The notes beneath the pieces were generated by a model that was not told the DNA's origin, searched no databases, and worked only from the letters and a program-made list of their open reading frames with translations. A stretch of DNA of 20,000 nt. Source: Folioceros fuciformis (Eukaryota). Positions 39 through 20,000 of the stretch are shown one piece after another; position 1 is the stretch's first letter; each line of letters starts with the position of its first letter. The position numbers and the translations under genes were made by a program. The DNA lies in the NCBI GenBank assembly GCA_049999805.1, contig JBNGIO010006079.1, positions 179,272 to 199,271 of the forward strand, written 5' to 3'.

Positions 39-138
39 NNNNNNNNNNNNNNNNNNNNNNNNNNNNNNNNNNNNNNNNNNNNNNNNNNNNNNNNNNNNNN
101 NNNNNNNNNNNNNNNNNNNNNNNNNNNNNNNNNNNNNN
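39..138. other. Assembly gap (100 N)
   Basis: Run of exactly 100 N, a typical placeholder for a gap of unknown size. Confidence 0.99.
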
Positions 139-1455: not shown

Positions 1456-2003
1456 GTCCGTCGTCTGATTCTTGCTTGCCTTCTCAAGGCCCCGGTGTCT
1501 TACATTATGGCATGCATGTGCACTCAGATCCATGCTTCCCCGACCGTTTAGTACGAGACCTTGTGGAGTAAGTAGAGGATTCCGATTCCCTCTATGACAA
1601 TCCATGGCTGATTGTTTTTGACATGTTGGGTGGCTCTTGTTGGGTGAGATGTCTGATCTGACCCTTGTAGTCAGACTTCTCGCCGCGAGATCCTCCTTAT
1701 TCCTCCTCGCTCCTCTCGATCAACCTTTACCGGGAAGGCCTCATCGGTTATGGGATTCAACAGGTTACGAGCTCCATACCATCTCTTTCCAACAACACTC
1801 CGTCGTGGCTTCACCTGTTAAGACTCCAACATAGAGCTACCCTTAACATTTCTGGTCATCGGAACGCAAGAGTCCTCAGTAAGCAGCGGCAGGGACGTCA
1901 CTACACATTGCATTCTGTTTTCCCTGGGTATGACGCAGACCATGGGTGGCCGCTTATCTTGAAGTGCAGCCTGGAGTGTGCTAGCGGGGCTTCACATTGG
2001 ATT

Positions 2004-5000
2004 ATGGGGAGTACGAAAAATGTTGTTGGGTCCATCAGCGCTGGCAGAGGGAGCGTTCTCAGTGATTCACATCAACTAGGGGCGGATACTTGGGCTGTGC
2101 TAATCTCAGGGTTTGCCAATTCCGGGCAAGCTAGACAGGCTCTGGAAATCTACGAGGAAATGCGGCAAGATGGAGTTGAGGCAAAGCCACATACCCTTGT
2201 GGATTTGTTGAAGGCTTGCACTTGCTTGTTGGACTTGAAACGTGCCAAGCGGATTCACGCAGACGTGGTAAGAAGTGGTCTCGAGACAGATTTGTATGTG
2301 GGCACGATGCTTGTAAATACTTACGCGAAATGTGGAAGCGTGGAGAACGCTAGGCGGGTGTTTGAGGAAATGCCCCATCGAGATGTGGTATCCTGGAATG
2401 CCATGATAACGGGGTATTCCCAGATGGGCAAGGGTGAAGAGGCTTTGAACCTGTATACAAGGATGCAACAGGAGGGTGTGGTCCCCACTGACAGAACATA
2501 TGTCGGGGCACTAAAGGCTTGCAGTAGCATAGTAGAATCGAGGGAGGAAAACGGTGGTGATCTGACGCTTGTTAGAGAACGATGCCTGGATACTGTGAGG
2601 GCAATTCATGGTGCGGTCCAAAAGGGTAGGTATGAGTCGAATGTGTTTGTGGGAAACATGCTAGTGGATGCGTATTGCAAATGTGGGAGCCTTGAGGATG
2701 CTGAACGGGTGTTTGAAGGAATGCCTGCTCATTCTGTCGTTTCCTGGACTGCCTTGATGTTTGGGTATGCCCAGACGGAACAAGGTGAAGAGGCTTTGAA
2801 ACTGTATAGGCGGATGAGAGAGGAAGGTGTGGTTCCCGACGACCGAGCATATGTCAGCGCACTCAAGGCTTGCAGTAGCATTGCCGAATTGTGGGAAAGC
2901 AATGGCAATGATGGACTATCGAGAAGGCAACACCTAGAAACTGTCAGATCCATTCACTCTGATATTCGCAGGGGAAAGTTAGAGCTGGATGTGTTTGTGG
3001 GAAACATGCTAGTTGATGCGTATGCAAAGTGTGGGAGCTTGCAAGATGCAAGGCAGGTGTTTGAGAAAATGCCACATCGTGACGTAGTTTCTTGGAACGC
3101 TCTGATCTTGGGGTACTCCCAAGCAGACGAGGCTGAGAAGGCTGAGGAGGCCTTGCAGTTGTACACACGCATGCGACAAGAAGGTGCCAGTCCTAACAAC
3201 CGGACGTACGTTGGTGCACTGAAAGCTTGCATTGTCATCGGAGGATCAGGAAATGGGATTGTTAAAGAAAAATGCATGGAAACTGTGACAGCAATACACG
3301 CAGACCTTGGCAATGAGAAGAGTGATTTAGACAAGTTCGTAGGGGCAATGCTGGTGGATGCATATGCGAAATGTGGGAGTCTGGCCAATGCCAGGTTGGT
3401 ATTTGATAAAATTCCTCATCGTGATGTAGTGGTGTGGACCGCCATGATTTTGGGATGTGCACAGATGGAGAAGGGGGAAGAGGCTTTACAGCTCTTTAAT
3501 CAGATGCAAAAGGAAGCCGTGATCCCAAACGAGCGAACATATCTTGGTGCACTCATGGCTTGCAGTAGCATTGCAGAACGTGAGAACACAGAAGGCAATG
3601 CTGAAACACTCCTTAAACAAAATTGTTTTAGAACAGTGAAAGCCATCCACACAGATGTTGAGAGGGCCGGGCTTGAGTCGAACCGGTTCTTGGGGAACAT
3701 GCTAGTGGATGCTTACTCCAAATGTGGGAGTCTGCAGGATGCTAGACGAGTTTTTGAAAGCATGCCTCAACGTGACGTGGTTTCATGGAATTCCATGATC
3801 ATCGGCTGTGCCCAGATGGAGAAGGGTGACGAGGCTTTGCAGTTGTTTGCAAAAATGAAACAGGAGGGCGTCGTCCCAAACGACCGAACATACGTAGGTG
3901 CCCTCAACGCCTGCGGTAGTGTGGCCGCTCTGGAGAAAGGGAAGGAAATTCATGCCCAGATTTTAAACGCTGGCTTGGACGCTGGCTCCTTCATGTGTAA
4001 CAGTTTGATAGATATGTATGGCAAATGCTCGAGCATGGAGGTTGCCCGGCAGTTGTTTGAACTGATGCTCGTCAAAGATATCGTGGCGTGGAATTCCTTG
4101 ATAGGTGGGTATGCCAGACAGGGGGAAAGTGAAGCTGTCTTCGAGCTGTTTGACAGGATGAGGCAGGAGGGTGTACAGCCCAACGAGATCACGTTTGTGG
4201 GTGTCCTCATTGTATGCAGTCATGTGGGTCTGGTGGACAGAGGACAGCAGTACTTCGAGGCTATGAGCAAGGAATTCGGCCTCACTCCTACTATCCAACA
4301 CTACAACTGTATGGTGGATCTGCTCGGCCGTGCAGGCCAGGTATGCAAGGCCATGGAGACTGTGATGACGATGCCCGTCCAGTGTGACAGTGCAGTCTGG
4401 AAATGTGTCCTTGGGGCATGTCAAAAATGGGCAAACGTGGAGCTTGGAAGGCAGGCATTCGAATATGCTACCAGGTTGAATGCAAGTGATGCTGCACCCT
4501 ATCTTCTAATGTCAAACATCTATGCTGCAGCTCACATGCCGGAGGAGGCAAGGAAGGTGCGGGCCATGCGAGTGAACTCACAAGCAAGGAAGGAACCAGG
4601 ACGCAGTTGGTGGATGGATATGTGCGGAAATGCCCACGTGTTCGTAGTCGGGGATCAAATCTCTCCAAACCAACCTAAACCTGTATGCCCAATTGGTACA
4701 ACTTCTGTAGAGAATGAACAAGAACACATACCAGTCGGGAAATTCTCTCTGTGTTGTAGGAGAAGAAGAAGCAGAGTGACATACTTGCATTGTCATATTC
4801 GTTCAATCACGGACTTATCTCTTAGTAAAGGAGGAATTCCTTATTCTCGACTACCCGTCCGCTACCTATGTTCTGGGATCCCAAACGTGTTTCATTCTTT
4901 CTCCGTCGGTCCTTGTCATAGGTGTGTGCCTGGATTCCTATTCCTACGCAAGCAATCAGTAGGCCTTGAGATTCGCTTAACTCCGACCAATTCGATTGGT

Positions 5001-5006
5001 CCTTGA
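2004..5006 (+). CDS. PLS-class pentatricopeptide repeat protein (organellar RNA editing factor): 21 PPR motifs, E1, E2 and a truncated WW-type DYW/E+ region
   Basis: Continuous ORF, open from 1908, first ATG at 2004. Six P-L-S triplets start at 2082 (VVSWNAMI.GY, TYVGALKAC, NMLVDAYAKCGS...A..VF..MP.RD). They are followed by P2-L2-S2 (EITFVGVL..CSH.GLV..G, HYNCMVDLLGRAG), E1 (VW..VLGACQKW.NVELG), E2 (Y.LMSNIYA) and the PG box EPGRSWW at 4593-4613. The true start or an upstream exon is uncertain. Confidence 0.93.
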   Translation: MGSTKNVVGSISAGRGSVLSDSHQLGADTWAVLISGFANSGQARQALEIYEEMRQDGVEAKPHTLVDLLKACTCLLDLKRAKRIHADVVRSGLETDLYVGTMLVNTYAKCGSVENARRVFEEMPHRDVVSWNAMITGYSQMGKGEEALNLYTRMQQEGVVPTDRTYVGALKACSSIVESREENGGDLTLVRERCLDTVRAIHGAVQKGRYESNVFVGNMLVDAYCKCGSLEDAERVFEGMPAHSVVSWTALMFGYAQTEQGEEALKLYRRMREEGVVPDDRAYVSALKACSSIAELWESNGNDGLSRRQHLETVRSIHSDIRRGKLELDVFVGNMLVDAYAKCGSLQDARQVFEKMPHRDVVSWNALILGYSQADEAEKAEEALQLYTRMRQEGASPNNRTYVGALKACIVIGGSGNGIVKEKCMETVTAIHADLGNEKSDLDKFVGAMLVDAYAKCGSLANARLVFDKIPHRDVVVWTAMILGCAQMEKGEEALQLFNQMQKEAVIPNERTYLGALMACSSIAERENTEGNAETLLKQNCFRTVKAIHTDVERAGLESNRFLGNMLVDAYSKCGSLQDARRVFESMPQRDVVSWNSMIIGCAQMEKGDEALQLFAKMKQEGVVPNDRTYVGALNACGSVAALEKGKEIHAQILNAGLDAGSFMCNSLIDMYGKCSSMEVARQLFELMLVKDIVAWNSLIGGYARQGESEAVFELFDRMRQEGVQPNEITFVGVLIVCSHVGLVDRGQQYFEAMSKEFGLTPTIQHYNCMVDLLGRAGQVCKAMETVMTMPVQCDSAVWKCVLGACQKWANVELGRQAFEYATRLNASDAAPYLLMSNIYAAAHMPEEARKVRAMRVNSQARKEPGRSWWMDMCGNAHVFVVGDQISPNQPKPVCPIGTTSVENEQEHIPVGKFSLCCRRRRSRVTYLHCHIRSITDLSLSKGGIPYSRLPVRYLCSGIPNVFHSFSVGPCHRCVPGFLFLRKQSVGLEIRLTPTNSIGP

Positions 5007-5780: not shown

Positions 5781-7075
5781 ATGACGGCCATTTCCGCCTC
5801 CATCAGCAGCTCCACCTTCGCAGGCCAGTCCGTGCTCAAGGGCGCCAGCGAGCTTTCCCGGAAGGTTCATGGCGGCAAGGCCGTTGAGTCGAGGATCACC
5901 ATGAGGAGGACAGCCAGCTCCAAGCCCGACAGCATCTGGTAGCCCTGTTTACTTGCTCCTCAATTTGCTGCAGCTGTGCACTGTAGTCTTTCGATGCAAT
6001 GCAATGACCTCTTCATTCATTCTACGAGATACTTGCCTCCGCGCAATGGATTCTCCACTTTGATTGCATCCCAACGTTTCCAGCTTCTTGTTTTCCTCCG
6101 TGCAGTAGATTTTCCCCTCTTCTTGCTCAGGTTAAAGGTCTACGTATTCACCGCCTTGACCTTTGCGCAATGGACTCTCTTTTCTATCTACTCTTTCTCT
6201 ATCTGTTGTGGCGTAGATGCTATCTACAATGAGCTTATGCCCTTGGCTGCGTTATACTCGCGTTCAAGTGCTTTGCTCCTCCTCAATGAGCTGCGTTTGT
6301 TACCCTCTCACCTAGACCATGGGATGCAATCGTCCAGACCTGTTCGTTCTTGAATGCATCGAGCTAGCCAGCCATGAGACATGCAACGCGATCTAAATCA
6401 AGGAACACGGATCTTGCTTGTAGGTACGGCCCAGACAGGCCCAAATACCTGGGCCCGTTCTCCGGCGAGCCCCCGAGCTATCTGAAGGGAGAATACCCCG
6501 GCGACTACGGCTGGGACACAGCCGGTCTGTCGGCCGACCCCGAGACCTTCGCCCGGAACAGGGAGTTGGAGGTCATCCACTCTCGCTGGGCGCTTTTGGG
6601 AACACTAGGAATTGTGACCCCTGAGATTTTGGCGCTCAACGGGGTGCCGATCCAAGAACCGGTGTGGTTCAAGGCAGGCGCTGTCATCTTCTCCGAGGAG
6701 GGGCTGAATTACCTCGGTAACCCGGCTTTGATACACGCGCAGAGCATTCTAGCGGTGCTGGCTGCTCAGGTGATTCTCATCGGCGCCGTGGAAGGTTACC
6801 GCATTGCAGGTGGTCCCTTGGGCGAGGTGACAGACCCTCTCTATCCCGGGGGCGCCTTCGATCCTTTGGGCCTAGCAGACGATCCCGATGTCTTCGCCGA
6901 GCTGAAAGTGAAGGAGATCAAGAATGGCAGGCTGGCACAGTTCTCTGCCTTCGGATTCTTTGTGCAGGCCATTGTAACTGGCAAGGGCCCCATCGAGAAC
7001 CTGTTGGACCACCTTGCCGACCCCGCCAACAACAATGCCTGGGCTTACGCTACCAAGTTCGTGCCGGGGAACTAG
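5781..7075 (+). CDS. Lhcb2: Major light-harvesting chlorophyll a/b-binding protein of PSII (Lhcb2/LhcbM-like); join(5781..5938,6424..7075), 269 aa precursor
   Basis: Exon 1 encodes a Ser/Ala-rich transit peptide and [14 protein letters not shown]. Exon 2 encodes [14 protein letters not shown]...ELEVIHSRW...AVEGYR...[10 protein letters not shown]...KEIKNGRLA...DHLADP.NNNAW. Splicing restores the WYGPDR trimerisation motif in frame (810 nt). The RRT N-terminus and this intron position are Lhcb2-like; strict orthology is not established. Confidence 0.95.
5939..6423 (+). other. GT-AG intron (485 nt, phase 2) of the Lhcb gene
   Basis: Donor TG|GTAGCC and acceptor CTTGCTTGTAG|G split the Trp codon. 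The interior is pyrimidine-rich. Confidence 0.92.
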
Positions 7076-7886
7076 ACTGTTCCTCCTACACCGTGTTAAC
7101 TCGATAGAAGCAAGCACGTTCGGAATCACATTTGTCCGGACGGAGCGCGTAGTTTAGCGAAATGCCTTTTGTACAGCGTCGCTCCACAATAATGTACACA
7201 CTGTGAATGTGCTTTGCCTATGAAGTTCTATCAACCGCTGTGCAACTTTGTCCCACTGCCGTCCATTGCATATCTCATTCCCGTGGGAAACTGAAAATAT
7301 GTAATATTTTTTATCCACAAACTTTATAGACATACTTTATTAAAGCTCAATATCATGTCAAAATGACATACCATCATATGTAAATAAACTATATACTATA
7401 TATGTATATTATACATGATATTATTTTATCAATACAAGTAGACGTTCTAGGTTATTTTGCAAGCTCACAATTAAGTTGATCTTGATGTCTCCTTGAGATT
7501 ACATAATGCATATAGATTGTGAACCTAGCTACTTGTGTTGTTACACTTCAAGAAAGGCAAAGGGCAACACCTTTTGAGAGGATATTGCTTAGCTTCCCTA
7601 CTAAGTGTCTGAAATCGAGCTTCCTTGATCCAAAATGGAACGTAACCTTGGGGAAGACAAATCGGTGAGCGAAATTCTTAACCAAGCTAATGAAGTGATG
7701 TGGGATAAGACTTGCATAGATGCTAGTCATCAACAACCATGCAACACAATCTGTGAACAAACCATTCGTGGCAAACCACATAGGATTGAAGTTAGCGAAC
7801 GACAATGGAGTGCAAGTCATGAAGAAGCTATAATAGCATGTAGACAACCATGTCTATGGAACTTTATGCACAAATTAGAGATGATC

Positions 7887-9416: not shown

Positions 9417-11365
9417 CTATCTTACAAGGTAAGAGGAGTCAAGGAATCCTATGGCTTCTTTGAATTGCACATGTTTCCCCTTAGGTAGAGCCTTCGTTAA
9501 AACATCTGCAGCATTCGAATCTGTAGGGATATATTCGAGATGCACCTGTCCAGAAGATACTGCTTCACGAATGAAATGATGGTGCACTTCAATATGTTTT
9601 GTCCTCGCATGGAAGACTGGATTTTCAACCAGAGCCAAGGCACCTATGCTATCACAGTGAATTGTAGTAGGCTGCACCTGCTCTTGACCCAAATTTTTTA
9701 GTAGCCTCCGGAGCCATATGGCTTCCTTCGCTGCTTGTGTAAGAGCATAATACTCTGATTCAGTCGAGGACAACGAAACTGTGGTTTGCTTTTTCGAAGA
9801 CCAGGTTATGGCACCGCCTGCCAGAAGAAAAACATAAGCCGACATTGACTTCCTGGAGTCAGAATTTGCTGCCCAGTCAGCATCACAGTACCCTATCAAA
9901 GTAAGTGGCTCTCCTTTATGATGTTGCTTTGTATAATGAATGCCGTGACTACTTGTACCCTTCAGGTACCGTAGGATCCTTTTAACGGCAGACCAGTGTG
10001 TTCTGCCAGGTTGCTTAAGGAACTGTGAAGTAGTACTAACTGGCAACGCTATGTCTGGTCTCGTGTTATTGGAGCAGAAAATCAGCGAGCCAACGGCCTG
10101 TGCATAAGGTACGTCCTGCATTTCCTGTTTTTCTGAATCAGTCACTGGTGAATGCTCCAGTGTGAGTTTACTACCTGCTTCCATAGGAGTTGCAGCAGGT
10201 TTAGCCTCCGTGAGCTTATACTTATGTAGCATATCAAAGATGTATTTTTCTTGATGGATAACCAGTGTGCCACTGGACTTATCTCGCAGGAGTTGAGTAC
10301 CCAAACAGTAAGAGAGTTCCCCAACATCCACCATATCAAATCTGCCAGATAAGAGACCTTTAACTCGGTTGATACCTTCAAGATTAGTACCAAGTAGAAT
10401 ACAGTCGTCTACGTACAAAGCTAACACCACATAGCCTGTCTCCTGTTGCAGGAAGTACACATTAGAATCTGCATCACTCTTCTTGAAGCCGAGGTCACGT
10501 AGAAACTCATCAATGCACTGGTACCAAGCCCTTGGTGACTGTTTTAGACCGTAGATAGTTTTCAATAGTCTGCAGACCCAGTCCTCACGTCCCTTAGCTT
10601 CATAACCTTCTGGCTGCTGCATATAGATCTCTTCTTCCAGCTTACGATGCAAAAACGCAGTCTTCACATCCATTTGATGGATGAACAAGCTGAAAAATGC
10701 AGACATAGCAAACAGGGCACGTAGGGACTGTGCCTTAACAACGGGGGAGAAAGTGTCATTATAGTCGAGCCCTGGGACTTGAGAGAAACCCCTAGCCACA
10801 AGGCGAGCTTTGTACCTCGCTATAGTTCCGTCAGCCTTATACTTGAGTTTAAACACCCATTTGCTGCTGACAATCTTCCTCCCCTTAGGCGGGGGACAAA
10901 GCTCCCAAGTCTGATTGTGGATAAGAGAGTCATACTCGGAGGTAATAGCTGCAATCCAATGACAAGAGTCGGGACCTGTGACTGCGTCCTCGTAGGATTG
11001 AGGTTCATAGCCAGGTTGGACAGTGACATGGACAAATTCTCCCACTATCTCATTCGGGTTCACTCCCACTGCCCGAGGCACTCTCCTAGTACGCCAGTCC
11101 TTAGCCTCATAGGGTTGTTCAAGCCATTGGTCTCGTCCACGATGCACCCTTGCAGACCTTCTAGGCTGAGGAGGCATCACATACTCTACAGGGTCATCAA
11201 CAACAAGTTCAGAATCATCAGCTGGAGGGGATTCAGGCACACCATCGAAGGGATCATCTTCTTCAGCTAAATCTGAAGCAGCAGCAGGTGATCCAGGAGG
11301 ATCCAGTGGAGGAACAGGGAGAGAATCTGGTGGGAGAGCAGGAGGAGGGTCTGGTGGGAGAGCAC
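9417..11365 (-). pseudogene. Copia pol: Pro-rich linker, reverse transcriptase and RNase H
   Basis: KWVFKLK, YKARLVARGFSQVPGLDY..TFSPV, QMDVKTAFLH, YGLKQSPRAW, LYVDD, YCDADWA, SSTESEY, HARTKHIEVHHHFIRE, ADVLTKAL. Confidence 0.96.
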
Positions 11366-12346
11366 CTAATCTGGAGGATCTGTGACATCAGAAGCATCAA
11401 AAACAGGAAAGTCTACAATATCTGTAGGCTCTGACTCATCTGACTCAGTGTAAACAGGATGTTTAGGAGTGGGATAAGTATCTGCATCTGACAAATCAAC
11501 AGGGAGATCAGCAGGAGGTGTAAGGACAGAGCGCTCATCAAACGCCACAGTGCGAGCATGAGACACTTTACGAGAAACTGGATCAAACAGTTTATAACCA
11601 TGAACTCCAGGTGTGTAGCCGATAAACACATGTCTTTTTGACTTGAAAGAAAATTTCTTCCTAAGCTTGTCTGGTATATGTGCATAGGCTATACTACCAA
11701 AGACACAAAGGTGGGAAATATAAGGCTTTACTCCTGTCCACGCTTCAAAAGGAGTTACATGTGATAAGGAAGAAACAGCTATCCTGTTCTGCAAGTAAGT
11801 AGCAACTTGAACAGCCTCTGCCCAGAAACGTATAGGTAGCCTCCCCTGAAAAAGTAGAGCCCTGGCAGCATCTTGTATTGTTCGATGTCTACGTTCTTCT
11901 ATTCCATTCATATCAGAATGATAAGGAATAGTTAGCTGCCTTGTGATGCCACGTTCCTGACAGAAATCTTGAAAAGCCGAGGATAAGTATTCCTTCGCAT
12001 TATCAGATCTTAAACTCTTCAGCTTACGCCCTGTCTGACGTTCAACATATGCCAGGTATCTTTTAAAACTGTCAAACACATCACTTTTATGCTTCAGCAA
12101 CTCAGTGAATGTAAAGTGAGTTTTATCATCTTCAAAGAGAACAAAATACTTGGCACCTCCCCAACTTGGTGTGGACATAGGGCCACAAATGTCTGAATGA
12201 ACCAAGTCTAACACTTCTGTCTGTCTCCGTGGTTTGCCAGATCCAAAGTGAGATTTAAACTGTTTCCCATGAACACATGCAACACACAACTCCAAATCTG
12301 GTAAGTCAGAATCTGTAAAACCTGTAACCATCTTGTCCTTCAACAA
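11366..12346 (-). pseudogene. Copia pol: integrase, frameshifted at both ends
   Basis: CVAC of the HHCC finger, VHSDICGP, LRSDNAKEY, NGIEERR (DDE) and the GKGY-like VHGYKLFD. An apparent 1-bp deletion near 11368 (GAT TAG instead of GAT TTA GGT) shifts it out of the RT frame. Confidence 0.95.
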
Positions 12347-13845
12347 ACCATCTTGTCCATCATGGCTTTAATGTTTGGATGTCCAAGCCTGCAGTGCCAT
12401 CTGAAGGCAGCGTATGATTTACTAGATGCAGACTCCACTACCTGGGCTGATGATGGTTGGACATCTGAGACAAAATCTAGGATATACAAGTCATACAGGG
12501 GAGTACCACGAGCTATGACATCTGAAGGTGAATTCAGCCTAGTGATAACATACTCTAAACCTTCAAACAAAATGTTGTACAGACCTGTTTTTCCTAAGGC
12601 CATAGTACTAACAAGATTTTTCTTGAGTGCAGGGACATGGAGTACATTCTCTAACTCCCATGTCTTCCCGTTCTTTAGAGTAACTATCACTGTACCTATA
12701 CCTCTAATAGGTATATGAGAATTATCTCCTAGAACAACAGCATGTTGACAAGGTAACTGTCTATAACTTACAAATGACTTCTTAGAAGAGCACATATGAT
12801 TAGATGCACCACTGTCTAAGAACCACTGATTTTTGTCCTTTGACACTGAGGACAGACAAGCCACAAGCAAACCAGGTGTTGTAGCTCTTGCCACATTTGA
12901 TTCATGCTGCTTTCCTTTTCCAGCATCATCTCTTTGCTTAGCCCTGCAATCTCTAACCCAGTGACCTGGCTTGTGGCAGTAATTGCACACACCAGGCTTC
13001 TTCCCGGGCTGCTGTGAGCTGGAGCTGGAATCAGGTCGGGATGCTTGTCCCCTGCCCCTTCCAAATCCTCCACGCCCACGCCCCCTTCCTCTGCCGCGAC
13101 CTCTGCCGCGGCCAGACCAAAGTGCAGTATCACTTTGCTTATGGGATGAGCTCGACGAACCCTTGCCAGTCATATGCTTCCTGTTGGCTTCTGCTTGAAG
13201 CAGGGCTCCAACTAGCTTTTGTACAGTCAAGGATGTCGTTGCTGGGGTTGTTGCAGTTGCTGGAGTAACAGTTGCTGTTGCTTGAATACTTGTGCTCCAA
13301 GTTTCATAGCTTGGAGGAAGGGCCAACAAGAACTGTACAGCTGCTCTACTCTCATCAATGATGACTCCGCATGCTGCAAGTCGTGCTGTTGCTGCCCTGA
13401 ACTTTGCAACAAAGCTTTCAACTGACTCATTTTCTTTCATGTGCAAATTTTGCCAGTGGTTGGTGGCGGCTCCCACTGAAATCAAATCCTTTGCTTCATA
13501 GGTATCATTCAACAATGTCCAGACTTCATGTGCATGCTTGGCCATCTTGATATGAGGAATCATTTCTTGTGAAACTGAACCAACAAGAATTGTCTTTGCT
13601 TTTCTATCCTTATGACTCCATTCTAACGCATCCTTCTGCATCCATAGTACAGGGTTCGTCCCCCCTGGTGTCATCATACCAGAGGGCTGCCCAGCCAACC
13701 TTTTTGGAATGGTGCCGTCAGTGACTTCCATCAGAAGTCTTTCTTCAAGAATTGTACGAACCCTAAATGACCAAGCATCAAAATTGTGTGGAGTAAGGCG
13801 ATCCTTCTCCTGTAGGCGATCAGAGGTCTAGTCTGCTGTCGCCAT
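12340..13845 (-). pseudogene. Copia gag, protease and pre-integrase region
   Basis: ATG 13845 gives MATAD*TSDRLQEKDRLTPHNFDAWSFRV, with a premature TAG at 13830-13828 in frame with ORF 13731-12340. Contains FLLALPPSYE, a (GR)n tract, zinc knuckle CNYCHKPGHWVRDC, protease WFLDSGASNH and WHCRLGH. Confidence 0.94.
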
Positions 13846-17221: not shown

Positions 17222-19282
17222 ATGACATAGAGGGTTTGTGTGGACCTCGCGATGTCCTTGGACACAATATTTTCCTCCACATACTGTATGTACAGAATAG
17301 GGAGGCTCCTTCCACTCATGCATGGGTCAACAAATTCGAGTAGAGCGACGAGGTGATGGGGCTACCTTGGCTGATTCAAGCTCTACAATGGGTGTAGTGA
17401 TAGGCTCAACTAAAGAAGTGTCTGTGTTAGGAATAACTAAAGAGTCACTTTCATCACAAGGGTCTGCTGAAGATGGTGGAGGTGTTGGAAGGTGCAGCAC
17501 TTCTGAAACCTTTCATCTTCGCCATCATCATAATTGGAAACCGAAACTATTTCCGTTGACTCCTAAGAAGAAGAAGCATCCTTGTCGTCAAAGAAACTAA
17601 CCTTATCAGTATCTGTAAGGGCTGAGTCTTCGATGCCATGAATAAAAGAAGGAACAGGGGTAGCATCCAGAAGCAAGGCAACAGTATGATGGCGAAGAAG
17701 AGCAGTGTCGTGGAAAACCACACTCCGAGATAAAGTAAGTTGATGGGTGACAGGGTTGAACAACTTATAGCCCTTCACCTCTTTTGAATAGTCGAGAAAA
17801 ACATGTCTGGATGCCTTGGGATCAAGCTTGGAACGCAGTGCTAGAGGAATGAGAGCATAGGCAGGGGCACCGAAAATTCGTAGGTGTGGAACTCGGGCTT
17901 CTTGCATGTCCATCTTTCAAAAGGGGTCACGGGACCAAGCTCCTTTGTTGGCAGTCGATTCTATACATAGTTGACGGCCATCAAAGCTTTGGCCCAATAC
18001 CCAAGGGTAAGTCCAGCAAAAGATAGAGAAGCCAAAGTAGATTCCTATAAAGTTCTATTTTTGCGTTCCGAGAAAGCATTCTGCTCTGGAGTATAGGGAA
18101 CTGTCAACTGGTGAAGGATTCCTTCCTGTGCATAGAATGATGCAAATGCATGACTGGTGTACTCACCACCATTGCCCATTCGCAGAATTCAAACCTTACA
18201 AGAAGTCTCGAGTTGAGCATAGCGAACATAGGACTTGAAGCAGTCAAAAGCTTCACTTTTGTGTCGGAGTAAGAAAACCACATAGTATCTGCTCCACTCA
18301 TCGATGAAGGTCAAGAAATAGTCTGCTCCTCCAAAAGAGCTGGTGGACATGGGACCACATATGTCGCTATGCACAGTGTGAAGCAAGCCATCAGCACGGC
18401 TAAGGGCCATATCCTTAAAGGGCAATGAATGTGCTTTACTCAATTGATAGGCTTCATAGAAGGCATTCTTATCGAAAGAGAATTCCAGAGGCTCATGATA
18501 ACTCTCACCTTTGACAAGAGAATTGAGATGTTGGAAGTTGACATGTCTAAGATGACGGTGCAACAATTGTGTGGAGGGTACCTCTGTGGTATGAATTGAC
18601 TGAGTAGTACCTATTACAATCTTGACGTTCAGGAGGTATAAGTCATGAGAAGGTGAGCCTGAGAAAAGATCATGCCCTAACCTGGAGCTTGTGACATAAC
18701 ACCCTTGCTGATCAAAACACACTTGGCAGTGATGTTCCTGTGACAACTTTAGGACAGACATCAAGTTCTTAGTCATTGAAGGGACATAAAGAACATTTGT
18801 GAGTGTAAGTCTAGAAGAGTTAGGCAAGGAAACGATGGCTGAGCCTGAGCCTTTGATGGAAAGTCCACTATCGTCTCCCAGTAAGACAAACTGTTTTGCA
18901 TTAGCAGCAAGAGTGAAAGAAGAGAAGGCATGCCTATGAAAGCAAATGTGACTTGTGGCTCTAGAGTCAAGAAACCATGTGTCATATTGTACTTGTGTAG
19001 ACGACAGGCAAATTGCCATGATAGTGGGCTGCTTAGCCTTGCTAGTGGTGACGTTGCTTTCTGGAGGATGATCGTGTCTAGGCTCTCCTCCTTTCTTCTT
19101 ACGGCAGTCTCGTTCATAATGGCCAGGTATCTTGCACCAGTTGCAAACAAAGGTCTTCTTAATGATCACATCACGTTGTGGGTTTGTATAAGAACCACGT
19201 CCTCTACCACGCCCACAAAAGCCACCTCGGCCTCTTGATGTGAAGAGTACTCTGGTGTTGCTGGAAGTGGAGCCCTTAGGCT
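17222..19282 (-). mobile_element. Older degenerate Ty1/Copia fragment (gag C-terminus, protease, integrase, linker), truncated at both ends
   Basis: RGRGG tract, zinc knuckle CNWCKIPGHYERDC, WFLDSRATSH, VHSDICGPM, RSKLDPKA...KGYKLFNP and RRSTR. Several frameshifts and stops. RT, RNase H and LTRs are absent. Confidence 0.92.
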
Positions 19283-20000
19283 TGTGAAAACTCCTTGTGT
19301 GCTCTTCAGATATGAGGGCGCCAATTACTTCCTCGAGGGTTACCTTCGGTGGCTGGCCAGTTGTGGAGGCAAAACCCCGGGCACTGATTGCCGACGGGTC
19401 CCACCTTTAGTGGCCACACTTATCCCACTGTCGTTGAGACATTGGGTTTCGTTCCCACGAAGGAGCGATGGGGTTCCTTGCTGCTGTGGATGGAGGGTCG
19501 GACTTGATCGACTCGATGACGGATTCGAGGGCTCCCCTCCAGCTCCGATCAGGCGTAGGACAGGCCTCGCTGTCCGGCGGTCAGCTGCACGTCTTTCGGT
19601 GCCCACAAACTCACTCCAGTCACTACAACGACTCTAACCTCTCAGATCTGCGTCTTCCTTCACTCACTTCACTCACTCTCTCGCTCCAGCACCAACACCA
19701 GCAACTACTAGCAACCAGCAACGACACCACTACCTTCTACACTTCCCTACGGACTCCTCCTACCCGGCGAGAGTCACTAGACTAACCCCAAACAAAAGGA
19801 AGAAGGGAACACACTCCCCTCTTGGGTATCTCCTCCCCACAACCTTACCAGACGCCATGAGACATGGTCGGCCTACAGCACTTGACCAAGCAAGGAACAA
19901 GAGTGGATAGGTTGAGAGAAAGACACACCCTTTACAATCAAGAGCTAGGGGCAAGCCCCTACACCCTGGTCATTACACCTTGTGATCCTACCAGACACTA
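19283..20000. mobile_element. Putative LTR/non-coding end of a further retroelement inserted in Copia-2 gag; runs off the window
   Basis: Gag similarity stops at about 19283, where TGTGAAAAC begins. Composition shifts to a C/A-rich plus strand (G/T-rich minus strand, like 16500-17200 on plus). No convincing ORF. Confidence 0.45.

What the first reader, a model, noticed from the sequence alone, without database searches (positions are those of the whole stretch)
5781..7075. Sulfur-free LHCII: every Met and Cys is missing from the mature antenna protein
Seen: the 228-aa mature protein (from RRTAS) has no Met and no Cys. The only Met residues are the initiator and the processing-site Met (5901). 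Against canonical LHCII the changes are RWAML->RWALL (CTT 6593), LGCV->LGIV (ATT 6611), WACQ->LAAQ (GCT 6764, a variable site), ILMG->ILIG (ATC 6779), GRLAMF->GRLAQF (CAG 6938) and FSMF->FSAF (GCC 6947). Most need 2-3 base changes per codon. The chlorophyll ligands (E65, H68, Q131, E139, E180, N183, Q197, H212 equivalents), WYGPDR, the frame and the splice sites are intact, so this is not decay. Established: RWAM and RLAM are near-invariant in LHC helices B and A, and sulfur-sparing antenna isoforms are known in cyanobacteria (Calothrix/Fremyella cpc3 phycocyanin) and Chlamydomonas (LHCBM9, only partly S-depleted). Inference: a dedicated S-starvation LHCII paralog, which I do not know to be described in land plants. 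Resistance to oxidation is an alternative explanation.
Basis: partly seen in the sequence, partly recalled or inferred. Interest (0 to 1): 0.92.

Follow-up and report, generated by a model that had tools for sequence, protein, structure and literature searches.

The report
Sulfur-free LHCII antenna gene, bryophyte type
This is an intact, spliced gene for the main light-harvesting protein of photosystem II whose mature form has no sulfur-containing amino acid, a state shared with liverwort, peat-moss and some green-algal relatives and probably a way to save sulfur.

Summary
A two-exon gene (5781-5938, 6424-7075) encodes a 269-aa LHCII precursor. Its 228-aa mature part has 0 Met and 0 Cys, and all chlorophyll ligands and WYGPDR are kept. 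A contig of a public run joins exon 1 to exon 2 exactly at the predicted GT..AG intron.

The gene is not unique. Of 243 homologs aligned over at least 200 residues, 20 have no sulfur residue and 2 have one. These include Calypogeia, Riccia, Sphagnum, Mesotaenium, Coccomyxa and Myrmecia. Canonical paralogs with 4-8 sulfur residues occur in the same species. No named fern or seed-plant hit has fewer than 4.

Chance is unlikely (P 1e-6 to 2e-3). Purifying selection is strong (dN 0.115 against saturated dS).

The best reading is a sulfur-sparing LHCII isoform like algal LHCBM9. Regulation by sulfur is untested in any bryophyte. The transcript also looks abundant in a run with no known sulfur starvation, so "dedicated to starvation" is not shown. 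Resistance to oxidation remains a live rival. Six literature searches found no description in land plants. I rate it a new member of a known kind, with moderately high interest.

The parts
5781..5938 (+). Exon 1. It encodes the transit peptide (5781-5903, ending with Met41 at 5901-5903) and the first 11 mature residues plus two bases of the Trp codon of WYGPDR.
   Evidence: Sequence and translation. An X1 contig covers 5828-5937 with 0 other letters and joins to 6423.
5939..6423 (+). Intron of 485 nt, GT..AG, lying after the second base of the Trp codon.
   Evidence: ends GT..AG. table 5: joint 5937->6423 skipping 485, GT..AG, in a contig of depth 1598. A contig within the intron has depth 3.7. 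The Sphagnum-type loci L013-L015 have an intron at the same place.
6424..7075 (+). Exon 2. It encodes the rest of the mature LHCII (YGPDR to VPGN) and the stop TAG at 7073-7075.
   Evidence: Pfam PF00504 at E 1.5e-46. Solved LHCII chains match at E 1e-121 to 1e-124. X1 contigs cover 6423-7200 with 0 other letters.
6593..6595 (+). CTT Leu at the RWAM site (spinach M73).
   Evidence: Met in 70 of 74 rows with at least 4 sulfur residues; Leu in 19 of 20 rows with at most 1.
6611..6613 (+). ATT Ile at the LGCV site (spinach C79).
   Evidence: Cys in 64 and Met in 7 of 74 sulfur-rich rows; Ile in 20 of 20 sulfur-poor rows.
6764..6766 (+). GCT Ala at the variable WACQ site.
6779..6781 (+). ATC Ile at the ILMG site (spinach M135).
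   Evidence: Met in 74 of 74 sulfur-rich rows; Leu in 18 and Ile in 2 of 20 sulfur-poor rows.
6938..6940 (+). CAG Gln at the GRLAM site (spinach M188).
   Evidence: Met in 74 of 74 sulfur-rich rows; Gln 11, Leu 8 and Met 1 of 20 sulfur-poor rows.
6947..6949 (+). GCC Ala at the FSMF site (spinach M191).
   Evidence: Met in 62 of 74 sulfur-rich rows; Asn 9, Ala 8, Thr 2 and Val 1 of 20 sulfur-poor rows.
7076..7200 (+). 3' untranslated region, at least as far as contigs reach.
   Evidence: X1 contigs cover 6794-7168 and 7139-7200 with 0 other letters. The true transcript end is not determined.

Best explanation
The gene encodes a working major-antenna protein (LHCII, Lhcb1/2/LhcbM type) from which every Met and Cys of the mature chain has been removed, and the loss is maintained by selection on elemental composition.

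Shown: the gene is intact, spliced and under strong purifying selection. It keeps all pigment ligands and the trimerisation motif. The sulfur-free state is specific to one paralog line and conserved in liverworts and Sphagnum beside canonical sulfur-containing paralogs.

Inferred: the protein enters LHCII trimers in place of canonical subunits. The most abundant thylakoid protein then costs no reduced sulfur, which frees Met and Cys for other proteins when sulfate is scarce. This would matter in rain-fed, nutrient-poor, aeroterrestrial habitats. Chlamydomonas LHCBM9 and its Parachlorella homolog do the same in part.

Whether the gene is switched on by sulfur shortage or runs as a standing share of the antenna is open. 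I lean towards basal expression that rises under sulfur limitation.
For: 1. The mature protein has 0 Met and 0 Cys, with ligands and WYGPDR intact. PF00504 matches at E 1.5e-46 and solved LHCII trimers at E 1e-121 to 1e-124.

2. A spliced contig sits exactly on the predicted intron at depth 1598. Exon contigs have 0 mismatches and depths of 1018-1669, against 3.7 for the intron contig.

3. The distribution is discrete. Of 243 homologs aligned over at least 200 residues, 20 have 0 sulfur residues, 2 have 1, 21 have 2-3 and 200 have 4 or more.

4. Sulfur-free and canonical forms occur in the same species: Calypogeia fissa (0 and 8), Riccia fluitans (1 and 4), Sphagnum (0 and 5-6), Coccomyxa viridis (0 and 5).

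5. All sulfur sites are replaced, with P 1.4e-6 to 2.2e-3. Sulfur residues outside the five core columns are also absent in 20 of 20 sulfur-poor rows, while 28 of 74 sulfur-rich rows have at least one.

6. Different lineages use different replacements at the same sites (Gln or Leu; Ala, Asn, Thr or Val). In the Sphagnum-type gene three of these codons (TTG, GTG, CTG) are one base from ATG and yet are not Met.

7. Between the window and the Sphagnum-type gene, dN is 0.115 and pS is 0.72, which is saturated.

8. Other oxidisable residues are not depleted: W 4.9 vs 5.1, Y 9.4 vs 7.9, H 3.05 vs 3.09.

9. Precedent within the same family (passage read in PMC4724957): Chlamydomonas LHCBM9 has at least three fewer sulfur amino acids and rises more than 1000-fold without sulfur. 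Its Parachlorella kessleri homolog rises 2050- and 5106-fold while the other LHCB genes fall or stay flat.
Against: No member of the bryophyte group has been tested under sulfur limitation, so regulation is pure inference.

The transcript looks abundant in the one holding run, for which no sulfur starvation is known. LHCBM9, by contrast, is described as barely detectable with sulfur present. Contig depth is a poor measure of expression, so this is only a hint. It still weighs against a strictly starvation-only isoform.

Marchantia polymorpha and M. paleacea gave only canonical hits. P. patens is reported to have 14 LhcbM more than 90% alike (passage). The isoform is therefore dispensable for some bryophytes.

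I could not check that the Parachlorella gene or LHCBM9 belongs to the same sequence group. Supplements are closed and the sequences were not at hand.

Avoidance of Met and Cys oxidation predicts the same composition.
Confidence: 0.5

Rival explanations
1. Oxidation-proof antenna. Met and Cys are the residues most readily oxidised by singlet oxygen and peroxide, which LHCII itself generates. A sulfur-free LHCII would therefore last longer under high light, desiccation and rewetting. Sulfur economy would be a side effect.
For: Named carriers are largely aeroterrestrial or lichen-associated by my recollection, not from a call: Coccomyxa, Myrmecia, Mesotaenium, liverworts, Sphagnum. The abundant transcript without known sulfur starvation fits a constitutive protective role (weak). 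LHCBM9 is described as protecting PSII and stabilising trimers and supercomplexes (passages in PMC5441897).
Against: Trp, Tyr and His, which are also oxidisable, are not reduced in the sulfur-poor rows. Buried and variable sulfur sites are lost alike. The only experimental data in the family tie such an isoform to sulfur supply.
Confidence: 0.25
2. Pigment-site specialisation. The Met residues of the two LHC motifs (RWAM and GRLAM) line the carotenoid and chlorophyll core. Replacing them tunes xanthophyll binding or quenching, and the loss of the remaining sulfur residues is incidental.
For: The clade also differs from canonical forms at non-sulfur positions, for example the lumenal-loop stretch PIQEP...LNYLGN and Tyr for Phe at residue 77. 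LHCBM isoforms are reported to differ in quenching properties.
Against: It does not explain why every non-conserved Met and Cys is absent as well (0 of 20 rows against 28 of 74). It also does not explain why lineages reach the same sulfur-free end with different residues at the same sites.
Confidence: 0.12
3. Chance or relaxed constraint. The sulfur residues were lost by drift in a redundant paralog.
For: LHCII has few sulfur residues (4-8), so total loss needs few events. Some canonical-clade paralogs have already dropped to 3.
Against: Hypergeometric P is 1.4e-6 to 2.2e-3. The state is kept across liverworts and Sphagnum under strong purifying selection. The core sites are 88-100% sulfur residues in sulfur-rich rows.
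Confidence: 0.03
4. Pseudogene, algal contaminant or assembly artefact.
For: Two runs of N lie in the window (39-138 and 1356-1455). Trebouxiophyte proteins share the same replacements.
Against: The frame is open, the transcript is spliced, and contigs are 100% identical. The gene lies between a plant-type PLS-class PPR gene and copia elements. The intron position is shared with bryophyte LHCII genes. The nearest relatives are liverwort proteins.
Confidence: 0.01

Closest known systems
Chlamydomonas reinhardtii LHCBM9 (sulfur-starvation-induced LHCII isoform)
   Same: Same protein family (major LHCII). It has fewer sulfur amino acids than its paralogs and coexists with canonical isoforms. It is interpreted as allowing sulfur to be recycled (passage in PMC4724957) and as protecting PSII under starvation (passages in PMC5441897 and PMC8230411).
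   Different: LHCBM9 is only partly depleted ('at least three fewer'), whereas this protein has none. LHCBM9 is a recent type I paralog within Chlamydomonas. This gene belongs to a liverwort clade outside the canonical embryophyte LHCII clade. Induction by sulfur loss is shown for LHCBM9 and untested here. I could not align LHCBM9 itself because the sequence was not at hand.
Parachlorella kessleri LHCB1 (1779_t), an LHCBM9 homolog
   Same: It is a trebouxiophyte LHCII, rises 2050- to 5106-fold without sulfur, and is the only LHCB gene to rise. Other trebouxiophytes (Coccomyxa viridis, C. subellipsoidea, [Myrmecia] bisecta) have fully sulfur-free LHCII with the same RWAL, LGIV and RLAQ replacements as the window.
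   Different: Its sequence and sulfur count could not be seen because the supplement is closed. Whether it belongs to the sulfur-free group is unknown.
Canonical land-plant LHCII (Lhcb1/Lhcb2/LhcbM; solved structures such as 1rwt, 2bhw, 5zji, 8c29, 8htu)
   Same: About 80-85% identity. The alignment to 1rwt residues 17-231 is gapless. All chlorophyll ligands, the ion-pair arginines and WYGPDR are kept, and the two-exon structure matches bryophyte genes.
   Different: Canonical proteins carry Met at RWAM, ILMG, GRLAM and FSMF and Cys at LGCV. This one carries Leu, Ile, Gln, Ala and Ile.
Sulfur-depleted phycobiliprotein set of Calothrix/Fremyella (cpc3), reported as 'adaptive eradication of methionine and cysteine' (recalled, not read here)
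   Same: Complete removal of Met and Cys from an abundant light-harvesting protein encoded by a separate paralog.
   Different: It is an unrelated protein family (soluble phycocyanin) in cyanobacteria. Its induction by sulfur starvation is established, by my recollection.
Moss Lhcb9
   Same: An LHCII-like extra isoform found in bryophytes.
   Different: Lhcb9 binds Chl 603 through Asn and is reported only from mosses (passages in bioRxiv 10.1101/2023.01.18.524345). The window protein has His at that site.

Membership tests
Major trimeric LHCII (Lhcb1/2/LhcbM type; Pfam PF00504) | Chlorophyll a/b-binding domain | tested here: met
   PF00504 at E 1.5e-46, 159 bits (cut-off 22.3), covering the full profile 1-162.
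Major trimeric LHCII (Lhcb1/2/LhcbM type; Pfam PF00504) | N-terminal trimerisation motif WYGPDR | tested here: met
   Present across the splice junction: W is split by the intron and YGPDR starts at 6425. PMC8230411 names the motif as needed for the trimer (passage).
Major trimeric LHCII (Lhcb1/2/LhcbM type; Pfam PF00504) | Chlorophyll ligands and helix ion pairs (E65, H68, R70, Q131, E139, E180, N183, R185, Q197, H212 in spinach numbering; the list of residues is recalled) | tested here: met
   All are present under the gapless mapping to 1rwt.
Major trimeric LHCII (Lhcb1/2/LhcbM type; Pfam PF00504) | Closest solved relatives are LHCII trimer subunits, not Lhca or minor antennae | tested here: met
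   Single-domain best matches are LHCII chains 8c29_G, 5zji_X, 8htu_U, 1rwt_A and 2bhw_A at E 1e-121 to 1e-124.
Major trimeric LHCII (Lhcb1/2/LhcbM type; Pfam PF00504) | Binds pigments and forms trimers in thylakoids | not testable with these tools
   Needs reconstitution or proteomics.
Sulfur-sparing antenna isoform (LHCBM9 kind) | Fewer sulfur amino acids than paralogs | tested here: met
   0 in the mature protein, against 4 or more in 200 of 243 homologs.
Sulfur-sparing antenna isoform (LHCBM9 kind) | Coexists with canonical paralogs in the same genome | tested here: inconclusive
   No genome is held for the window. X1 contigs show other LHCII-type sequences in the same run, but their sulfur sites were not displayed. 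The feature is met in named relatives: Calypogeia, Riccia, Sphagnum and Coccomyxa.
Sulfur-sparing antenna isoform (LHCBM9 kind) | Induced by sulfur deprivation while canonical isoforms decline | not testable with these tools
   No run under sulfur limitation was available, and only one holding run was found.
Sulfur-sparing antenna isoform (LHCBM9 kind) | Orthology with Chlamydomonas LHCBM9 | not tested
   The LHCBM9 sequence was not at hand. Sulfur-poor rows are scattered on the chlorophyte side of the tree. One clade of all 15 rows with at most 1 sulfur residue is neither found nor rejected (p-AU 0.10).
Moss Lhcb9 | Asn ligand of Chl 603 | tested here: not met
   His stands at the H68 position. 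The Asn ligand is described in the Lhcb9 structure preprint (passage).

The most novel reading that the evidence does not exclude
The sulfur-free LHCII is one ancient paralog line of the green lineage. It would have been present before chlorophytes and streptophytes split, kept in trebouxiophytes, Mesotaenium-type algae, liverworts and Sphagnum, and lost in vascular plants and some bryophytes. On this reading a second, sulfur-free major antenna has run beside the canonical one for about a billion years. The 'invariant' Met of the LHC motif is then dispensable for pigment binding.
Probability: 0.2. Interest if true: 0.8.

Novelty: new member of a known kind. Interest (0 to 1): 0.6.

Why it matters
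LHCII is usually called the most abundant membrane protein on Earth (recalled). A version with no sulfur at all would be a large lever on a plant's sulfur budget.

The finding extends the LHCBM9 idea from Chlamydomonas to land plants, and from partial to complete depletion.

It shows that the Met of the LHC motif (GRLAM, Met in 74 of 74 sulfur-rich rows here) can be replaced by Gln or Leu in proteins that stay under strong constraint.

It names tractable organisms in which elemental sparing in plants can be tested directly, namely Riccia fluitans and Sphagnum.

The protein would also be invisible to 35S labelling and resistant to Met oxidation, which makes it a handy natural control for LHCII turnover and photodamage studies. 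If it does spare sulfur, it is a template for lowering the sulfur demand of crop antennae.

Tried and rejected
- Own-genome search for paralogs: no genome is held. The paralog set of this species could therefore not be listed.
- Cluster look-up for accession numbers: switched off.
- Sequencing runs: no RNA holder is listed. The single holder, X1, is only guessed to be RNA. I read it as RNA because its exon contigs are about 300-450 times deeper than its intron contig and one contig carries the spliced joint. A processed DNA copy is not strictly excluded.
- Runs X2 and X3 (other organisms): only conserved LHCII pieces 90-95% alike were laid, which is uninformative.
- Sulfur-responsive promoter core (GAGAC/GTCTC; motif recalled): 2 in the 1 kb upstream (5005 and 5722). 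About 2 are expected by chance for a 5-mer on two strands, so this is no evidence.
- Single versus multiple origin: the quick tree puts the 9 bryophyte rows with at most 1 sulfur residue in one clade at support 73. The careful tree splits them on weak branches. The AU tests reject neither one bryophyte clade (p 0.369) nor one clade of all 15 such rows (p 0.10, log-likelihood 28 lower). The question is unresolved.
- Papers not held: Grewe 2014 and Nguyen 2008. What I say of them comes from passages in other papers or from recall.
- Additional file 7 of PMC4724957 is a supplement and is closed. It may hold the Parachlorella gene needed to test whether the sulfur-induced gene is sulfur-free.
- One search was badly framed because the minimum number of terms did not force LHCBM9. 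It gave nothing useful.
- Metagenome scan: I translated 43 of the 80 loci (L001-L043). 3 are sulfur-free (L013-L015, Sphagnum type). The identity figures for L026, L032, L042 and L043 are not valid because their lengths differ, so I did not use them.
- Structure prediction and complex prediction were not run. They cannot place pigments and would not separate the explanations.

Full report
**What is there**

The window holds a two-exon gene on the + strand. The ATG is at 5781 and exon 1 runs to 5938. A 485-nt GT..AG intron (5939-6423) cuts the Trp codon of WYGPDR after its second base. Exon 2 runs from 6424 to the TAG at 7073-7075. The 269-aa product has a 41-residue presequence ending in Met. 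The 228-aa mature part starts at RRTAS and contains no Met and no Cys. Their distances from ATG or TGY are 2, 2, 2, 1, 2 and 3 bases.

**It is a real LHCII**

Exon 2 matches Pfam PF00504 over the whole profile (E 1.5e-46). It also matches solved LHCII trimer subunits at E 1e-121 to 1e-124, and aligns without gaps to residues 17-231 of spinach 1rwt. Under that mapping E65, H68, R70, Q131, E139, E180, N183, R185, Q197, H212, Y24 and WYGPDR are all kept. M73, C79, M135, M188 and M191 are L, I, I, Q and A. It is not moss Lhcb9, which ligates Chl 603 through Asn (passage), because His stands at that position here.

**It is transcribed and spliced**

One public run (X1, coded; its kind is only guessed) holds 79% of the sampled words. 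When laid on the window, it gives exon contigs with no mismatch at depths of 1018-1669. One contig joins 5937 to 6423 across a GT..AG gap of 485 nt at depth 1598. One contig inside the intron has depth 3.7. This pattern is what cDNA gives. The database has no RNA label for the run, so I treat the label as unproven and the splice as shown. Depths of contigs cannot rank genes. The high figures are only a hint that the gene is well expressed in a sample with no known sulfur starvation.

**It is not alone**

Three protein searches returned 253 homologs, of which 243 align over at least 200 residues (10 were dropped for short cover). Sulfur residues in the aligned part are distributed as follows:

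| Met + Cys | Homologs |
|---|---|
| 0 | 20 |
| 1 | 2 |
| 2-3 | 21 |
| 4 or more | 200 |

The sulfur-free set includes:
- an unnamed transcript 94% identical to the window;
- Calypogeia fissa, and Riccia fluitans with a single Met;
- several Sphagnum proteins;
- Mesotaenium endlicherianum;
- Coccomyxa viridis, C. subellipsoidea and [Myrmecia] bisecta;
- environmental sequences.

The same species also carry canonical forms: Calypogeia 8, Riccia 4, Sphagnum 5-6 and Coccomyxa viridis 5 sulfur residues. No hit named as a fern or seed plant has fewer than 4. Marchantia polymorpha and M. paleacea appear only with canonical forms. A preprint states that the 14 LhcbM of P. patens are more than 90% alike (passage). 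The isoform therefore seems absent from some bryophytes. The searches list only the best 120 hits each, so this is 'not seen', not 'absent'.

**More than chance**

In an alignment of 113 rows, five columns carry Met or Cys in 88-100% of the 74 rows that have at least 4 sulfur residues. The 20 rows with at most 1 have Leu, Ile, Gln, Ala, Asn, Thr or Val there. Against seven canonical references, all 4-8 sulfur sites fall among the 34-48 differing sites of 217 (hypergeometric P 1.4e-6 to 2.2e-3). Sulfur residues outside the core columns occur in 28 of 74 sulfur-rich rows and in 0 of 20 sulfur-poor rows. Lineages reach the same end by different residues: Gln in liverworts and Coccomyxa, and Leu in Sphagnum, at the GRLAM site.

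Three metagenome loci (L013-L015, of 43 translated from 80 fetched) carry the Sphagnum-type sulfur-free gene. They have the same intron position as the window. Against the window, dN is 0.115 while synonymous sites are saturated (pS 0.72). Three of their replacement codons (TTG, GTG, CTG) are one step from ATG. The sulfur-free state is therefore maintained under strong constraint.

**Phylogeny**

The six sulfur columns were removed before tree building. In a careful tree of 72 rows, the window groups with the unnamed transcript, Calypogeia and Riccia (100/97). An environmental sequence joins them next (98/91). This group lies outside the well-supported canonical embryophyte clade (34 rows, 98/90). 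The Sphagnum sulfur-free pair (100/99) sits weakly (81/73) beside that canonical clade.

A single bryophyte sulfur-free clade is found in the quick tree of 113 rows (support 73) and is not rejected on the careful one (p-AU 0.369). One clade of all 15 rows with at most 1 sulfur residue costs 28 log-likelihood units and is not rejected either (p 0.10). On the 113-row tree the state changes at least 6 times. Two sulfur-free environmental chlorophyte rows sit next to rows with 5-6. My reading is recurrence among green algae and an old paralog line in bryophytes, with the deep history unresolved.

**Why no sulfur**

Within the same family there is experimental precedent. Chlamydomonas LHCBM9 has at least three fewer sulfur amino acids and rises more than 1000-fold without sulfur. 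Its homolog in the trebouxiophyte Parachlorella rises 2050- to 5106-fold as the only LHCB gene to do so (passage in PMC4724957). Trebouxiophyte proteins found here share the window's replacements. I could not see the Parachlorella sequence because the supplement is closed.

I therefore favour sulfur economy (0.5). Oxidation-proofing is the main rival (0.25). It predicts the same loss of Met and Cys and fits the apparent constitutive expression. However, Trp, Tyr and His are not depleted. Pigment-site tuning (0.12) does not explain the loss of non-conserved sulfur residues. Drift, pseudogene and contamination are disfavoured.

**Literature**

Six full-text searches were run: LHCBM9 with sulfur terms; LHCBM9 with 'land plants'; sulfur-sparing terms with light-harvesting; 'sulfur-containing amino acids' with LHCII; sulfur with Lhcbm and liverwort; and sulfur-free/-depleted/-poor with LHCII or Lhcb. 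They turned up no description of a sulfur-free or sulfur-sparing LHCII in a land plant. The library lacks most subscription journals, so this is not proof of absence. Of the papers cited I saw passages only. Grewe 2014, Nguyen 2008 and the cyanobacterial cpc3 work are recalled or cited at second hand.

**Verdict**

The gene is a new member, in land plants and with complete depletion, of the known kind 'sulfur-depleted antenna isoform'. It appears undescribed, and it is directly testable.

Noticed in passing
window 1671-5006 (+): A long open frame (1111 aa, stop to stop) encodes a PLS-class pentatricopeptide-repeat protein with an E motif (PPR_2 E 1e-113; E_motif E 1e-12). This is the plant organelle RNA-editing type. 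It lies directly upstream of the LHCII gene.
   Followed up: partly
window 9417-13827 (-): A Ty1/copia-type LTR retrotransposon. gag and the Pol beta-barrel lie at 12340-13827, integrase at 11366-12367, and reverse transcriptase (RVT_2, E 6e-73) at 9417-11387. These are three successive frames, so the element has frame breaks.
   Followed up: partly
window 17563-19406 (-): A second copia-like fragment (Pol beta-barrel, GAG-pre-integrase).
   Followed up: partly
window 39-138 and 1356-1455: Two runs of 100 N, which are scaffold gaps.
   Followed up: no
window 5904-5912 (mature N-terminus RRT): The predicted mature protein starts with RRT. These are the same first three residues as the phosphorylated LhcbM2/Lhcb2 tail that docks LHCII to PSI (passage). 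The nearest relatives do not share this start, so it may be specific to this gene.
   Followed up: no
run X1 laid on window 6480-7062: Besides the 7 contigs at least 99% alike, 9 contigs are 95-99% alike. One leaves the window at 7062 into a different stop and 3' end. This suggests a second close copy or allele of the sulfur-free gene in the same organism.
   Followed up: no
proteins P0195-P0252 (chlorophyte hits): A broad intermediate class with 2-3 sulfur residues (RWAL and LGIV, but Met kept at ILMG and GRLAM) is common in chlorophycean and trebouxiophycean LHCBM, for example Haematococcus, Sanguina, Chlamydomonas moewusii, Apatococcus and Symbiochloris. Sulfur content in LHCII is therefore graded and not two-state in green algae.
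   Followed up: partly
L013-L015, 724-2148: Metagenome contigs carry the Sphagnum-type sulfur-free LHCII gene (98-100% to P0050). It has the same two-exon structure and the intron in the same codon phase as the window.
   Followed up: yes
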